Positions 15,001-21,000 of a stretch of DNA of 21,971 nt are shown piece after piece (the first letter of the stretch is position 1; each line of letters begins with the position of its first letter). Origin of the DNA: a virus. The DNA lies in UHGV virus genome UHGV-0067703. One strand, given 5' to 3'. A program made the position numbers.

Positions 15001-18000
15001 GAATGCTCTTTTGGGGTTGTCCAGACCAGATCTTCCATGTTGAACTCACTGGCTGTCGCGAGACGTAGCTCAGAAAGTCTGGCCCCCCATAGCAATAGCA
15101 ATTGATGTAACACCTTGTTGGAAGTAACTACTTTTGAGTTCTCCAGCGCCAGCCAAATTTTTGCCAGTTCCGTATAGGTAAGTACACGACTCCCTACATC
15201 TGTTTTTTTCCCAATATTCTTAACACTAAGCTTGAGTAATTCGCATGATGGGATTAACTGGCGGCTGATACACCAGTTAATAACTGAACGCAGTTGTAAC
15301 AACAAAACACGAGCCTTTTTCTTGTTGAGGCTTTCTTGTTTGTCAAAGAAACGAGCCCATGCCGATACTGGGATACTGGCAACTGGCGAGCCTTCAAACT
15401 GTGTGTACATAGTGTTGTACACGACGGATCTGTAAAGCGTCTGTGTATTGGGTTTCAGATCAGTAACATACTTATCCCACCACTGATCCAGGCATTCTTT
15501 TAATGTCAGTTCGCCGTCACTGGGCGCAAAATAATTTTTAGGGTTAACTCCCTTCATGTACAATGCGCGCATCTCACCGACGATAACACGCGCGTCCTTC
15601 AGTGAAGTAGACGGATAGCGCCCGACAGTAAGACGTACTGGCTTACCATTCCAGCGATAACGGTACTGAAACGTGATAGTTCCTGCTGGAGTAATCCGCA
15701 CACTTAACCCGTCACCATCGGTGATTTCAGCAGGGCCAGAGTAGGGTTTTCCGTAGAGGCCTCGTAATTTGGTGTCGCTCAGTGCCAATGCTTTATATCC
15801 TGTACACAAGTTTATAATGTATTCTGTACTCAATATGTACGCATTAGCAAGTGAACAAAACACTTTTCAACGCAAAAGAAGATAATCAACCATGAACAAA
15901 AACGAACTTACACCTTGATTTTAAAACCATAAAGACGGTATTATCAGTCATATGGTGAACAACCAAAATCAATACGCAACAATGTCCTCTTAGTTAAATG
16001 GATATAACGAGCCCCTCCTAAGGGCTAATTGCAGGTTCGATTCCTGCAGGGGACACTTTAAAGACCTTTCTCTACATTTCACTTCATTACATAACAACTT
16101 AAAAAACAGTAAGTTATCACCGAATCGGCCTGATTTTCATTTCAGTTAATTTCATGACATTACAACCTCGTGATGGTATAAGTGATGGTATTCCCCAGTT
16201 CGATATGCAGATACCATCAATTTACCAAAATGAGTACAGATATGGCCATTAATGTGCTTTCCCCCAAACAGATAGAAAACGCCAAGCCGAAGACCAATGA
16301 TTACAAACTTACCGATGGAGGGAGTTTGTATCTACTGGTACGAAAGACTGGTGGAAAATACTGGCGTATGAATTATCGTTTTGATGGAAAACAAGTGACA
16401 TTGGCATTAGGGGTCTACCCAGATGTCTCACTTGCAACAGCGCGGAAACGGCGTGATGAAGCCAGGCAACTACTAGCCGATGGTCGTGATCCTCGTGAAG
16501 CAAAGAAACCCAAAAAGGAAGACCCAATTTCCCCCACGTTCGAGAGTGTTGCCAGAGAGTGGCATAGTGGAACGATGGGGCATCCTGAGTGGAAAGAGAT
16601 CACCCGTAAAAAAATTCTCCGAGAAATGGAAAACCACCTCTTTCCTGCCATCGGTTCAAAGCCTATCGATACGCTCAAAACCCGTGACTTGATGCCGATG
16701 CTGGTTGAGATGACTGAGAAAGGAATTGGTGCCACAACGAGCCGGGTAAAAACCACTATGACGAGCATCTTCCGTTATGCCGTGCAACGTGGAATTGTCG
16801 ATTACAACCCTGCCCACGATCTAAAAGGTGCAATTACGACCCCCAAAGTACGACATCGCCCCGCACTACCTCTCGAACGTTTACCTGAACTGTTAGCGAA
16901 AACGAGAAGTTACACGGGAAGACCATTGACTCGCCTAGCAGTTCTATTTTCCCTGCACACTTTTGTGCGATCCAGCGAACTACGACATGCCAGATGGGAG
17001 GAGATCGACATTGAAAATGGGCTATGGACGATACCAGGACAACGTGAAGAGATCGCAGGGGTTAAATTCTCAGAGCGGGGTGCAAAGATGGGGGCTGCTC
17101 ATTATGTCCCGCTATCTAGTCAGGCTATCGGGGTACTGGAGGATATAAGGAAAATCAGTGGTGAATATCTGCTGGTTTTCCCCGGTGACAGCAACCCATA
17201 TAAACCGATGAGCGAAAACACAGTTAATAAAGCACTGCGAACGATGGGTTACGACACTCAAAGTGATGTTTGCTTGCATGGGTTCAGGGCGATGGCCTGC
17301 TCTGCACTGACCGAATCAGGACTCTGGTCACGCGATGCAGTTGAACGGCAGATGAGTCACCAAGAAAGAAACGAAGTGCGGGCAGCATATGTGCATCTTG
17401 CGCAGCACATGCAGGAACGCCGCAGAATGATGCAATGGTGGTCTAATTATCTGGAACTAAATAAGGACGAATTTCATGCTCCTTATGACTTATCAGGTAT
17501 TAACATTATCAATTAAATTTTCTTATAATTTAAAACAGAGGTCATAATGCAGCATTCAAAAGAGAATGAAACTATATTCTTAGGAAATCTATGGATTGAC
17601 AAAAAAATACCACCATTAGAATATTGTTCATTTGAACGCGCTTCAAGACTATTAGAATGCGAGATTGATGATTTATTACACCTATACGAAATAGGCGCTT
17701 TTAATATCGCATTCAAGGCGGATGGACTTGCAGTTAGATTTAATGTTAATTTCCTCTATAAAAATCAGAAAATGGAAATTGACTTAATTCATCCCGTATT
17801 AACTAATCAATCACTAGAGATGGAATTTTCAACAATATGGTATGACCTTAAAGATGACTCCTTTGAACATTTTGAAAATGGGCTTCAAATTATAGGATTT
17901 GCCTGTGGTATTTGGTACGCCGATGATATGATAAGTGACATAAAAAATGGATTAGCTATAGATCCAGATTATGAATTCAGGCTTAAACCGGTAAAAATAC

Positions 18001-21000
18001 GAGATAATGTTTTGATGGCAACGGCCTCATATGAAGGAAATAAGGTCATTGATATTCCATTTGAAGATCTTCTTATCATGCGAAGAGATTTAGAGTTAAT
18101 ATGGAAATCAGTAAAAACTGGAATTCCTATGCCAAGTTTACTTACGAAAAGAATTTCATCTGAACCTAAAATCCCCAAGCGATTAAATAACACTGCTGAG
18201 CATCATGCAAAAAATAGGGAGGGGTTATTAAATGCAGCCATATATATATTAGCAAAATACCCAAGCGAATGTCGTGGTGAAAGAAAAGAGATAAGTCCTG
18301 AAAAGTGGACTAACGCCATAATTAAACATTTAGGAGAGCTACCTCCAATATTTATCACTAATGAACAAGAAATCTTAAGAAAATTACGATTAGCGGTTAA
18401 TCATGCGGGATTAAGACAAAAGGGGTAGACTGAAACAATCTACAGGTAGAGTTGATTACACTACCTTCACAGCATTTTGATATCCCCATAGTATCTGCCG
18501 TGTTCATTACATAACACGGCAGGTAATTTCATGACATTAAAAACTTATCCTATCACTGGACATGCCCGCCCACGAGCTACTGCTGACTTTTTGCAAATAA
18601 GTACGGTTACTCTCTGGCGCTGGGAAAAGAACAATCCTGAATTTCCCAAATCTATACGCATTTCAAAACGGGTATCTGTTTACGATGCACAAGAAATTAG
18701 GCAGTGGGTTAAAGCTCAATCAGCAGGATTGGAGGAAGTAGTGTAATGACAATATTAACAAAGCTGGGGAGAAAAAAGCCTCCCCAACGTATTAATCAAT
18801 TCTTTGGTTCTAAACCTCGGCTTTGTAACTCTTTGCGTAGAATGCGCTTGATCCAAGCCGCTAGCGATTCATCGCCATCCTGCTGTTGTGCTTGTTCCAT
18901 CAGTTCACGCAGTTCAGGGTCAAGTCGGAACTGGAATGGCGGATTCCCACGTCTTTCATTTTTGTGTGTTGACACGTCAATTACACCCATTGTAATGTAT
19001 TTATGTGTAATGACACATTACACACAGAAAAACAAAATAGCAACGCCCCGGAGTGTTTGCAGCACCACCGAGGCGTCTGACCAGCACGTTATATGAGGTA
19101 ACGAAGATGGCTAAACAGAAGTGTACCTGGTTATTTGCGGCGATCAACCGCAGTCAACGTAATGCCCGTCCGGTGATGTTAAGGATCACCGCAGATAACG
19201 AGCGATCAGCGCGGCGCAGACTTGCCCCGGACTATGTACTGAGCTTTGCCGGGCGCATTCCCTGCGGAGGTGAACATGCGTAATTATCCGCATCCCGGCG
19301 AACGCTGGCAGCATGAACGTGGCTGGACGGTCACGATTATCCGATTAATAGAAGCCTCGCCCTCTGTGGCGCTGGTTAATCCTGAATTCAGCTGTGAAGT
19401 GCTGATACGTCATGACAGCGACAACCAGCTTTCTTCCTGCCCTCTGGCATGGTTTGAACAGCGATATACGCGCCTGTTTGATGTACCGCTCTTTAAGCCT
19501 GCACCAGCTCCTGCAGGCGGTAGTGGTTCCGGCCCGCTGACACTGCATCCGTCTGTGCTATTTATCCGCTGGCGGGAGCGTAGCATATGGCGTTCTGCTG
19601 AGCCTGATGACGGTCACTATTCAAAGTTTCTCTGACAAAACACCGCTGAAAACGGAGTAATCCACAATGAATATTTCAAACGGGCACAACGGTGCTCAGG
19701 GCCAGACTTTGCCTGAAAAACACAATACCGGTGCTTTTGCCTATGGGTTGTCAGAGGACGGTTTCGGAAAGCTGACCCGCGCAAGAAATGCCTGCGACAT
19801 GCTCCAGCTTCTCTTTTCTGAATACCCGTCTCAGGCCGGAGCACTGGACGCAGGCTGTGCGCCTGGTGTCGCCGCGCTGATGGAGTACCTGCGGGCAGAT
19901 TTGACGGATATTGCACACAGCTGCGCACTGATTGAAGGAGGTGCCAGATGAACCAGCCGCAGGTTTCCATTTTCCCGGCAGAAATGACCACCGCGCTTTA
20001 CCGGCGGGCTATTGCTTCAGCATGGCGGCAGAAAATGCTGAACGAAACTGGCAGTGATCAGTATGGTCCGCACAGCCTGACGGTGGAGCGTATTGAAATG
20101 GCCATTGCGCTGCATATCGAGTGCGCACTGATTAACGAGTACGGCGAAGCACAGGGCGCCGCTGCCGCGCTGGCACTGCTGACTGACATGCTGGAGCCGT
20201 CACTGCTGACCGCGCCGCCGGTACTGACCGCGCGCGGTTGTGAAGTAATGGTGGAGATGTACCGCACGCTTCCGGCGGCCTTTGATGTCTGCTGCAGTAC
20301 CGGTGTGACGTTGTATCAGGGGGAAGTATGACAATACAGACGGTTACGCAGATTTCAGCCGCCGCGCGGGGGAAATGGCCCGTTATTCTGCAGATGCTGC
20401 GTATTGATGTACCTGAAAACGGCAGGCACGGTCCCTGCCCGAAATGTGGGGGCAAGGATCGTTTTCGCCTTGATGACCTTGACGGGCGCGGGACGTGGAT
20501 CTGCAGCCAGTGTGGCAATGGTGACGGTCTGGATCTGGTTAAGCTCGTAACCGGTTACAGCGTCAGAAAGGCTGCGCAGGAGGTGGCGCAGGTGCTTAAT
20601 GTGCCGGATGTGCAGGAACTGCCTGTTAAGCCTGCCAGACAAAAAGCCCCTAAACGCGACATGGGTCTTACCGTGGCGGCGCTGATGAAAGAGAGCCACA
20701 CGGGAGAAAGCGCCTATCTGACAGGAAAAGGGTTCGCCGGATACCCGGCCTCTCTGACCGGAAGCGTGCAGCATATCAGCGGTAAGGATTTTCCTGCCGG
20801 TTCCCTGCTGTTACCACTCACGACCAACACCGGAGCCGTGACTGGTGCACAGCTTATCGCCCCGACGGGTGAAAAAAGCATACTGCCCGGCAGCACGATG
20901 AAAGGCGCGTTTGTGTCGCTCAGCCCGTTACCGTCTGAACCACCGGTACAGGTGGTGATTACCGAAGGTTACGCTACGGCGCTGACGGTAAGTCAGCTCA

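What the first reader, a model, noticed from the sequence alone, without database searches (positions are those of the whole stretch)
17547..18428. AT-rich 293-aa orphan gene between the P4-type integrase and alpA
The gene sits directly between int and alpA of a tRNA-Arg-integrated P4-like/PICI-like element, is visibly more AT-rich than both neighbours, and matches no family I recognise. Integrase-proximal variable slots of satellite elements often carry anti-phage or helper-interference cargo, so this is the best single-gene candidate for an undescribed function in the window. It may be co-transcribed with int, given the 30-nt gap.
Basis: partly seen in the sequence, partly recalled or inferred. 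Interest (0 to 1): 0.7.

Follow-up and report, generated by a model that had tools for sequence, protein, structure and literature searches.

The report
Hypervariable satellite gene between int and alpA
The 293-aa gene is real and is not an orphan: it belongs to a large, undescribed protein family that always sits between the integrase and the AlpA switch gene of phage satellites, so it is more likely part of the satellite's control module than random anti-phage cargo, though its function is still unknown.

Summary
ORF 17547-18428 (+) encodes 293 aa, lies 30 nt after a P4-type int at tRNA-Arg(CCT), and has GC 0.34 against 0.48 for int and 0.42 for alpA. It has no Pfam, NCBIfam, PHROG or PADLOC match. 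It is not an orphan: an exhaustive profile search found 561 clusters (50% identity), all annotated as hypothetical.

In every locus with enough flank, an integrase lies 0-158 bp upstream and an AlpA gene 99-125 bp downstream, all on one strand. This holds in P4-like and PICI-like satellites. Nine of 10 close integrase relatives carry an intact family member in the slot; the tenth carries a decayed copy.

Alleles are hypervariable and swapped as cassettes (Int 98%, AlpA 100%, X 41% in one pair). The gene is nevertheless under purifying selection (omega 0.20).

Structure: a MerR/Xis/AlpA-like winged-helix fold with an acidic recognition helix, split by an acidic variable insert of about 110 aa, then a basic, highly conserved C-terminal module with no known relative.

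In many relatives the curated Rfam motif RF02996 ("int-alpA RNA") is the leader of this gene; the window copy lacks it.

Best guess: a sensor or regulator gating the AlpA induction switch (about 0.4). Main rival: defence or interference cargo (about 0.25). Nothing here proves the function.

The parts
15984..16056 (+). tRNA-Arg(CCT), the attachment site of the satellite
   Evidence: ARAGORN; Rfam tRNA 63.4 bits
16242..17516 (+). P4-type tyrosine integrase (424 aa from the PGAP-equivalent start; the longest ORF starts at 16182)
   Evidence: Pfam Arm-DNA-bind_3, Phage_int_M, Phage_integrase; annotation in EA2 and PRO_A
17500..17529 (+). sigma-70-like promoter TTAACA-18-TATAAT (11 of 12) overlapping the int 3' end, 17 nt before the X start codon; GAGG Shine-Dalgarno at 17537-17540
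   Evidence: consensus scan; sequence. Consensus match only; not shown to be functional
17547..18428 (+). gene X, 293 aa, member of an undescribed family fixed between int and alpA
17607..17717 (+). X residues 21-57: first half of a MerR/Xis/AlpA-like winged-helix fold (PPLEYCS.ERA..LL.CE..DL.H...IG); the 'recognition helix' is acidic
17718..18050 (+). X residues 58-168: beta-rich, acidic, fast-evolving insert in the wing of the fold (the variable part of the cassette)
   Evidence: AF2; dN 0.31-0.38 against 0.07-0.12 in the conserved modules; mean charge -10.8; no fold match
18051..18137 (+). X residues 169-197: conserved strand and helix (DL.I....IE.I) that completes the winged-helix fold
   Evidence: alignments A1 and A3; omega 0.04-0.08
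18189..18425 (+). X residues 215-293: basic three-to-four-helix C-terminal module (ERHA.NRE..L..AIYIL.KYP.ECRG..KEISPEKW...PP..ITNE..IL..LR.AVN). It is an independent domain, also found on other N-termini, and is replaced by other modules in some alleles
   Evidence: AF2 pLDDT 96-98; 35 invariant columns, mostly here; pI 9.5; P0032, P0038, P0040 and P0047; no PDB or Pfam relative
18425..18466 (+). two tandem hairpins starting at the X stop codon. A hairpin at the same position, with different sequence, occurs in relatives, some followed by a T-run, so this is probably a weak terminator insulating X from alpA
   Evidence: fold dG -11.8 kcal/mol, z -1.95; alignment A2. Terminator role is inferred
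18466..18494 (+). promoter-like site TTCACA-17-TAGTAT (9 of 12) for alpA
   Evidence: consensus scan only
18492..18525 (+). 13-bp hairpin (perfect 10-bp inverted-repeat core CTGCCGTGTT/AACACGGCAG) whose 3' arm covers the alpA Shine-Dalgarno. Its sequence is clade-specific, with matched changes in both arms
   Evidence: fold dG -19.7 kcal/mol, z -5.9, 0 of 200 shuffles as stable; alignment A2
18531..18746 (+). alpA (Phage_AlpA, 71 aa), the invariable downstream partner of X
   Evidence: Pfam PF05930 E 1.6e-7; neighbourhood script

Best explanation
X is a standing component of the satellite's int-alpA control module, not hotspot cargo. I propose it is expressed in the integrated state from its own promoter and acts as a modular sensor or adaptor that gates the AlpA switch, the activator/excisionase whose expression starts satellite induction.

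Shown: the N-terminal two-thirds form a MerR/Xis/AlpA-type winged-helix fold whose 'recognition helix' is acidic, split by a variable acidic domain of about 110 aa. The C-terminal 75 aa form a basic, very conserved helical module.

Inferred: the acidic fold and insert bind a protein rather than DNA, either a helper-phage or host factor or a basic DNA-binding protein such as AlpA or Int. The basic C-terminal module anchors the protein to nucleic acid or to a conserved partner. Binding of a helper signal to the variable domain would release or permit AlpA action. This would resemble the way SaPI Stl couples satellite induction to a helper protein. Rapid divergence and cassette exchange of the sensor part would then reflect changing helper partners.
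For: 1. Strict synteny. All 58 family genes in 127 loci have Int 0-158 bp upstream and AlpA 99-125 bp downstream on the same strand wherever the flank allows. These elements have different replication and packaging modules and different attachment sites (argW, yicC).
2. The link to alpA survives without int. P0032 (a different N-terminus with the same C-terminal module) sits 97 bp upstream of alpA with no integrase upstream. L002 and L122 share a 1.4-kb X+alpA block at 88-98% identity next to unrelated integrases.
3. Nine of 10 close integrase relatives carry an intact family member in the slot and the tenth a decayed copy.
4. The fold is that of regulators and excisionases.
5. The family is absent from 50,697 phage genomes, so it is satellite-specific.
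6. There is no defence-model hit, and the real cargo hotspot is elsewhere.
7. The surroundings are tightly engineered: an own promoter, the curated RF02996 RNA as leader in relatives, post-gene hairpins, and an alpA Shine-Dalgarno sequestered in a strong hairpin.
8. The cassette breakpoint falls just after the part of X that encodes the wHTH, so the N-terminal fold stays with the backbone while the insert and C-terminus are exchanged.
9. The literature states that no repressor is known for Gram-negative PICIs and that the helper-encoded inducer of alpA is unidentified (PMC6092414), so a gap exists that such a protein could fill.
Against: No experiment or direct computation shows regulation.
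- No operator was found. The inverted repeat before alpA follows the int/alpA clade and not the X N-terminal type (L012 and L002 carry different X types with the same repeat), so it is probably not X's site.
- The 'recognition helix' is acidic in 98% of members, which argues against classical repressor-type DNA binding.
- X types do not co-vary with either Int or AlpA, which suggests the partner lies outside the module. That fits a sensor equally well as a defence protein.
- EcCICFT073, the studied Gram-negative PICI, appears to have alpA directly after int (ORF numbering in PMC6092414), so X is not universally required.
- Domain-wide positive selection was not detected (omega 0.25 in the insert).
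- X co-exists with the P4-type CI RNA module in some elements, so it does not simply replace that immunity system.
Confidence: 0.4

Rival explanations
1. X is accessory cargo: a single-gene anti-phage, helper-interference or satellite-exclusion protein kept in an integrase-proximal moron-like slot. The variable acidic domain recognises a phage protein, and the conserved C-terminal module is the effector or oligomerisation part.
For: Alleles are hypervariable and exchanged as cassettes between near-identical flanks (Int 98%, AlpA 100%, X 41%). X type does not co-vary with Int or AlpA, which points to an external partner. The gene has a strong constitutive-type promoter and low GC. In distant elements and in CP4-57 the same slot holds unrelated genes. 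Satellites are known reservoirs of defence genes (PMC9122126, PMC13586616).
Against: There is no PADLOC hit for X or for 10 other slot genes. No enzymatic or known effector domain was found. Within two integrase clades the slot always holds the same family, unlike defence hotspots, which mix unrelated systems. The constant 99-125 bp spacing to alpA and the retention upstream of alpA even without int are hard to explain for free cargo. The satellite has its own cargo hotspot after delta.
Confidence: 0.25
2. X is an accessory recombination factor: an Xis-like architectural or directionality protein that works with the adjacent integrase (for example in site choice, or in inhibiting excision), with AlpA acting as its antagonist or partner.
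For: The N-terminal fold matches excisionases and recombination directionality factors (AlpA-family 8c3t, Pukovnik Xis, TorI, RdfS). The gene lies immediately after int, sometimes overlapping or within 30 nt.
Against: X alleles move between unrelated integrases (Int 28%, X 89%). A C-terminal-module relative occurs without any adjacent int. The acidic recognition helix is unlike DNA-bending Xis proteins. AlpA/Vis already supplies the excisionase function in this type of element (P4 annotation; PMC6092414).
Confidence: 0.1
3. X is an establishment or counter-defence factor: an acidic protein expressed on entry that neutralises a basic DNA-binding host or helper protein, such as a restriction or silencing factor or a helper repressor. 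This would resemble an anti-repressor or a DNA mimic.
For: The N-terminal 200 residues are strongly acidic across the family. A MerR-fold protein that binds a protein instead of DNA (CbpM) is among the best structural matches. Anti-repressor-type genes (AntA, Bro-N, Ash, pRha) follow alpA in many of these elements, so helper manipulation is a theme of this region.
Against: The charge density is far below that of classical DNA mimics. The basic conserved C-terminal module is not explained. There is no similarity to ArdA, Ocr or known anti-defence proteins in any search.
Confidence: 0.08
4. The ORF is a chance or decaying reading frame in AT-rich spacer DNA.
For: AT-rich DNA, no family hit, and the annotation 'hypothetical' everywhere.
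Against: dN/dS is 0.20 overall and 0.08 in the conserved modules. Synonymous sites are saturated while the motifs are conserved. 561 homologous clusters have conserved length. The AF2 model is confident, with pLDDT 84.5.
Confidence: 0.01

Closest known systems
SaPI/PICI master repressor Stl (Rpr) of Gram-positive satellites
   Same: It is encoded next to int in the satellite's control region and is extremely diverse between otherwise similar satellites. It is modular, with a conserved fold plus a variable partner-binding part, and it is thought to couple induction to a helper-phage protein (PMC6092414). X shares the position next to int, the diversity and the modularity.
   Different: No sequence or profile similarity was found. 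X is co-directional with and upstream of alpA, not divergent from the excision/replication operon. Its HTH-like helix is acidic, and no operator was found. Repressor activity is entirely untested.
AlpA / P4 Vis / excisionase-type MerR-superfamily winged helix (PF05930, PF12728)
   Different: No Pfam hit. Profile-profile probability against AlpA is 1.1%. A domain of about 110 aa is inserted in the wing. The recognition helix is net negative in 98% of members, whereas AlpA proteins are +3 to +7. An extra C-terminal module is present.
CbpM (MerR-fold chaperone modulator that binds a protein, not DNA)
   Different: No sequence relation, a different size and context, and no insert or C-terminal module.
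P4 hotspot genes next to int (gop-beta-cII) and the P4 defence hotspot
   Same: P4 cII (264 aa) also lies directly downstream of int on the same strand. The P4 region between int and psu is a hotspot of variable anti-phage genes (PMC9122126, PMC8628076).
   Different: cII is not homologous to X (hhalign 0.2%). X lies between int and alpA, not between int and psu. In this satellite the cargo lies after delta. The slot holds one family rather than many.
Rfam RF02996 'int-alpA RNA' motif
   Same: It is a curated structured-RNA family named for lying between int and alpA. Here it maps to the int-X spacer and ends about 15-20 nt before the X start codon in every relative with a long spacer, and it also precedes the X-like gene of L128, which has no integrase upstream.
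   Different: It is an RNA motif, not the protein. The window copy lacks it because its spacer is only 30 nt. Its function is not established. My recollection that it comes from the Weinberg et al. 2017 screen could not be verified in the text held.
YfjH of cryptic prophage CP4-57 (intA-yfjH-alpA, E. coli K-12)
   Same: An uncharacterised gene of about 318 aa in the int-alpA interval.
   Different: It is on the opposite strand and is not homologous (hhalign 0.3%).

Membership tests
Phage_AlpA / HTH_17 excisionase-type MerR-superfamily HTH | Significant match to the family profile (PF05930 or PF12728) | tested here: not met
   No Pfam hit for X (E up to 1) or for any of 90 family members; hhalign of the AlpA profile against the X profile gives probability 1.1%
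Phage_AlpA / HTH_17 excisionase-type MerR-superfamily HTH | Winged-helix fold (strand, two helices, wing, C-terminal helix) | tested here: met
Phage_AlpA / HTH_17 excisionase-type MerR-superfamily HTH | Basic or polar recognition helix suited to DNA contact | tested here: not met
   Residues 38-50 are net negative in 98% of 90 members and never positive; D42 is present in 89 of 90
Stl/Rpr-type satellite master repressor | Encoded adjacent to int in the satellite regulatory region and highly diverse between satellites | tested here: met
Stl/Rpr-type satellite master repressor | Divergently transcribed from the excision/replication operon, with operators in the shared intergenic region | tested here: not met
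   X is co-directional with alpA. The inverted repeat before alpA does not co-vary with X type
Stl/Rpr-type satellite master repressor | Represses satellite genes and is relieved by binding a helper-phage protein | not testable with these tools
   Needs genetics and biochemistry
Known anti-phage defence systems (PADLOC-DB v2) | Match to a defence-protein model | tested here: not met
   0 families at E up to 10 for X; 0 of 10 unrelated slot genes at E up to 0.01
P4-like satellite defence hotspot cargo | Located between int and the psu-delta-sid operon (next to cos), with unrelated systems alternating at the same place | tested here: not met
   X lies between int and alpA. Cargo genes lie after delta. 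The same family fills the slot in all close relatives. Hotspot definition from PMC8628076 and PMC13586616
P4-like satellite defence hotspot cargo | Confers phage resistance when expressed | not testable with these tools
   Needs phage challenge assays
P4 cII (sce7726 family) / CP4-57 YfjH | Sequence homology | tested here: not met
   hhalign probability 0.2% and 0.3%
Loci carrying the Rfam RF02996 int-alpA RNA | RF02996 match at or above the gathering score between int and alpA | tested here: not met
   The window has none at the gathering score or at E up to 10. Relatives L003, L006, L016, L017, L018, L021, L022, L104, L105, L122, L123 and L128 do

The most novel reading that the evidence does not exclude
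X and the orphan Rfam motif RF02996 together form the missing input device of Gram-negative phage satellites. X would be a helper-phage sensor, functionally equivalent to Stl but built from an acidic, non-DNA-binding Xis/MerR-like fold with an inserted variable receptor domain and a new basic C-terminal module. It would hold the AlpA switch off until a helper protein binds. More broadly, the slot of one roughly 300-aa gene between int and alpA across Proteobacteria would be a family of interchangeable sensors that set helper specificity.
Probability: 0.2. Interest if true: 0.85.

Novelty: new variant of a known kind. Interest (0 to 1): 0.6.

Why it matters
How Gram-negative satellites (PICIs and many P4-like elements) sense their helper phage and switch on alpA is an open question. 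The literature says that no repressor is known and that the inducer is unidentified (PMC6092414). This work defines an uncharacterised protein family of at least 561 clusters. It sits directly upstream of alpA and nearly always directly downstream of int. It diversifies by cassette exchange, and in many elements it is preceded by a curated RNA motif of unknown function.

That gives the field a concrete candidate to delete and test. It also assigns a likely gene context to RF02996. If the family turns out to be a defence or interference factor instead, it would still be a new single-gene system with two domains that have no known structural relatives.

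Tried and rejected
1. X replaces the P4 CI-RNA immunity system. The satellite lacks C4 and isrK even at E up to 1, while P4 has both just after vis. But L007, L104, L105, L111, L113 and L122 carry X together with isrK and C4. Rejected.
2. YfjH of CP4-57 is a family member. hhalign probability 0.3%, and it is on the opposite strand. Rejected.
3. P4 cII is a family member. Probability 0.2%. Rejected.
4. The 251-aa gene of the tandem int-gene-HTH element in strain PRO_A is a member. No HMM hit. Rejected.
5. The inverted repeat before alpA is X's operator. 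It tracks the int/alpA clade, not the X type. Unlikely.
6. The alternative C-terminal modules (P0039, P0045, L038, L074, L080, L085) are homologous to X's C-terminal module. hhalign probability 0.5%, with only weak sub-threshold HTH_Tnp_Tc3_2 hits. Unsupported.
7. The insert is under domain-wide positive selection. Omega is 0.25-0.41. Not detected with this crude test.
8. Fusion partners of the C-terminal module. The word-indexed search returned only fragments. Uninformative.
10. PDB sequence search. Nothing significant.
11. Literature. No paper mentions the accessions of X. The RF02996 source text could not be retrieved.
12. The search for related loci with the broad alignment A3 failed because it has no conserved stretch. 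The first identity-matrix script timed out.

Full report
OBSERVATION. The ORF at 17547-18428 (+) is exactly as described: an ATG start, 293 codons, and a 30-nt gap after the stop of a P4-type integrase. Its GC content is 0.337, against 0.48 for int and 0.42 for alpA. tRNA-Arg(CCT) is at 15984-16056. The element is a true P4-like satellite. In strains EA2 and PRO_A, which carry the same region at 99.8-100% identity, the order is tRNA, int, X, alpA, a reverse YlcI/YnfO gene, icd-like, DUF5375, TOPRIM/DUF927 primase, sid, psu, delta, cargo, and then the chromosomal dsdC. The window ends inside the primase. X has no match in Pfam, PADLOC or NCBIfam, and only a meaningless PHROG hit at E 0.11.

THE GENE IS REAL AND IS NOT AN ORPHAN. 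The word-indexed protein search found only 14 clusters. The exhaustive HMMER search with a family profile found 561 clusters at 50% identity with E up to 1e-3, and 170 with E up to 1e-10. Nearly all are 270-350 aa. Every source name is 'hypothetical protein'. None of 90 diverse members hits any Pfam model. The named hosts are Enterobacterales (Escherichia, Salmonella, Klebsiella, Enterobacter, Serratia, Yersinia, Xenorhabdus, Providencia) plus Aeromonadales. Against a 92%-identical allele, dN/dS is 0.20 overall: 0.08 in the C-terminal module and the 169-197 helix, 0.16 in the N-terminal fold, and 0.25 in the insert. Against more distant alleles, synonymous sites are saturated while the motifs persist. 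In complete E. coli genomes the window allele occurs in 68 of 5,426, a second allele in 41 and a third in 1. The family has no match in 50,697 phage genomes.

CONTEXT: A FIXED SLOT. A script over 127 fetched loci found 58 family genes. Wherever the contig is long enough, an integrase lies 0-158 bp upstream and an AlpA-type gene 99-125 bp downstream, all on one strand (individual loci). The elements are otherwise different. They include P4-like satellites at argW and PICI-like elements at yicC, with several primase types, AntA/Bro/Ash/pRha genes, and in one case capsid-type genes. Among the 10 closest integrase relatives from other genera (77-87% identity), 9 carry an intact family member between int and alpA, and the tenth carries a truncated copy next to an insertion. 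The tie to alpA is the more basic one. P0032 has the same C-terminal module on an unrelated N-terminus, and it sits 97 bp upstream of alpA with no integrase upstream. The low GC is shared by all members (0.33-0.37, and 0.44 in one Serratia element), whatever the host.

HYPERVARIABLE, RECOMBINING ALLELES. X diverges far faster than its neighbours. For L017 vs L021, Int is 98% and AlpA 100% identical but X only 41%. For L016 vs L017 the values are 91%, 95% and 32%. Conversely, L002 and L122 share X at 89% and AlpA at 84% next to integrases that are 28% identical. Sliding DNA identity shows the cassette edges. Identity is 96-98% through int, declines over the part of X that encodes the N-terminal fold, is random-like (about 40%) through the rest of X and about 80 bp beyond its stop, and returns to 88-98% about 40 bp before alpA. 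In L002 and L122, a 1.4-kb X+alpA block is shared. It is also right at long range. In integrase relatives of about 40% identity from other Proteobacteria, alpA usually follows int after 750-1300 bp holding one same-strand ORF of 190-367 aa, and these ORFs are mostly unrelated to X. CP4-57 has the unrelated, opposite-strand yfjH there. None of 10 such slot genes matches a defence model, and 9 of the 10 match no Pfam family.

SIGNALS AROUND THE GENE. In the window, a near-consensus sigma-70 site (TTAACA-18-TATAAT) ends 17 nt before the ATG, with a GAGG Shine-Dalgarno. The leader is unstructured. Two hairpins start at the stop codon. Relatives have a hairpin of different sequence at the same place, some followed by a T-run, which suggests a weak terminator. 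Just before alpA, a 13-bp hairpin (dG -19.7 kcal/mol, z -5.9) covers the alpA Shine-Dalgarno. Its sequence is specific to each clade, with matched changes in both arms. It tracks the int/alpA clade, not the X type, so it is probably not X's binding site.

Unexpectedly, the curated Rfam family RF02996 ('int-alpA RNA') matches the int-X spacer in every relative whose spacer is 87-97 nt. It ends about 15-20 nt before the X start codon. It also precedes the X-like gene of L128, which has no integrase upstream. It is absent where the spacer is short, including the window. The motif is a three-way junction followed by a U-run and a Shine-Dalgarno-like AAGG. It behaves as the leader of X, or as a terminator between int and X.

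WHAT IT MOST LIKELY DOES. Shown: a conserved, selected, satellite-specific protein of three modules, locked in position upstream of alpA and usually downstream of int, in a tightly organised regulatory region, with rapid allele turnover. Inferred: it belongs to the control module and gates the AlpA switch, with the acidic fold and insert acting as a receptor for a protein signal and the basic C-terminal module as an anchor (confidence 0.4). The published gap makes this plausible: Gram-negative PICIs have no known repressor, and alpA is switched on by an unidentified helper function (PMC6092414).

The main rival is a defence, interference or exclusion protein (0.25). It is favoured by the cassette exchange and by the lack of co-variation with Int or AlpA. 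It is disfavoured by the single-family occupancy, the fixed spacing to alpA, the absence of any effector domain or defence-model hit, and the separate cargo hotspot after delta, which is where the literature places P4 defence genes (PMC8628076, PMC9122126, PMC13586616). Other rivals are a recombination accessory role (0.1) and an establishment or counter-defence role (0.08). A spurious ORF is excluded.

NOVELTY AND VERDICT. The family is absent from Pfam, NCBIfam, PHROGs and PADLOC and from the searchable literature. Two of its three modules have no recognisable relatives. The kind of thing it is, a modular protein in a satellite's int-proximal control region, is familiar. So I rate it a new variant of a known kind, with interest 0.6. 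It is a well-defined, testable candidate for an open question, and it gives a context to an orphan RNA motif, but no function is demonstrated here.

Noticed in passing
L003:7913-7979, L006:7915-7980, L016/L017/L018/L021:7287-7352, L022:5403-5468, L104:1519-1585, L105:3878-3944, L122:1252-1317, L123:1276-1341, L128:1845-1910: The curated Rfam motif RF02996 ('int-alpA RNA', function unknown) always lies in the int-X spacer and ends about 15-20 nt before the X start codon. In L128 it precedes the X-like gene, about 125 nt upstream by coordinates, although no integrase lies upstream there. It looks like the leader of the X family or a terminator between int and X. The window copy lacks it.
   Followed up: partly
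window 18492-18525: A strong 13-bp hairpin (dG -19.7 kcal/mol, z -5.9) sequesters the alpA Shine-Dalgarno. A promoter-like site at 18466-18494 would start transcription inside its 5' arm. If so, read-through transcripts from int and X would keep alpA untranslated, while transcripts from alpA's own promoter would not. The inverted repeat is clade-specific, with matched changes in both arms.
   Followed up: partly
window 1-15863 (int on the minus strand at 14619-15863; HTH_17 gene at 14453-14635): A lambdoid prophage (MT-A70 methyltransferase, DUF1627, DUF1382) abuts the 5' side of the same tRNA-Arg, so two integrases flank one tRNA back to back. This prophage-tRNA junction occurs in 145 of 5,426 E. 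coli genomes. In the strains most similar to the satellite, yfdC precedes the tRNA instead.
   Followed up: partly
window 10833-10911, 10937-11022, 11871-11954: isrK, C4 antisense RNA and sRNA-Xcc1 matches (Rfam, above the gathering score) lie in the lambdoid prophage, not in the satellite.
   Followed up: no
L001:14900-26800 (complete copy of the satellite) compared with L135 (phage P4): The satellite has no C4/CI or isrK RNA even at E up to 1, whereas P4 has both directly after vis. Its gene order also differs from canonical P4: sid-psu-delta follow the primase on the same strand, and cargo lies after delta. How this satellite maintains immunity is unclear.
   Followed up: partly
window 13979-14374: The DUF1627 protein of the prophage contains a perfect tandem VQP repeat (VQPVQPVQPVQPVQPVQ).
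   Followed up: no
L134:26416-36717 (strain PRO_A, downstream of the satellite): After delta comes a 1,992-bp 'ATP-binding protein' cargo gene. It is followed by a second, tandem element with the same layout (int, an unrelated 251-aa gene, an HTH regulator), a rolling-circle replication protein and a SIR2-family gene.
   Followed up: partly
L026-L095, e.g. L029:7289-8185, L041:7308-8201, L085:7243-8169: In integrase relatives of about 40% identity from Beta- and other Proteobacteria, a single same-strand ORF of 190-367 aa usually fills the int-alpA gap. Nearly all are uncharacterised (one is DUF6387) and none matches a defence model. Several end in a transposase-like HTH-type segment, but the Pfam hits are below threshold.
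   Followed up: partly
L128:533-741: Four CRISPR-DR4 (type I-F-like) repeats and a HicB-like gene lie just upstream of the satellite-like element that carries the X-like gene P0032.
   Followed up: no
plasmid records NZ_CP033626.1 (22,859 bp) and CP031371.2 (21,845 bp), Klebsiella pneumoniae: Small 'plasmids' encode a distant X-like protein (25% identity over 95% of the query). In NZ_CP033626.1 a site-specific integrase is annotated under the same match. They may be excised circular satellites assembled as plasmids.
   Followed up: no
H103/H104 (ETEC1722, ETEC1739), L120:4001-4708, L024:7448-8095: Natural truncations or decayed copies of X exist: only the first 525 nt match in two ETEC strains, one copy is a 235-aa truncated ORF, and one is a 215-aa remnant next to an insertion. 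These could serve as natural knock-outs.
   Followed up: no
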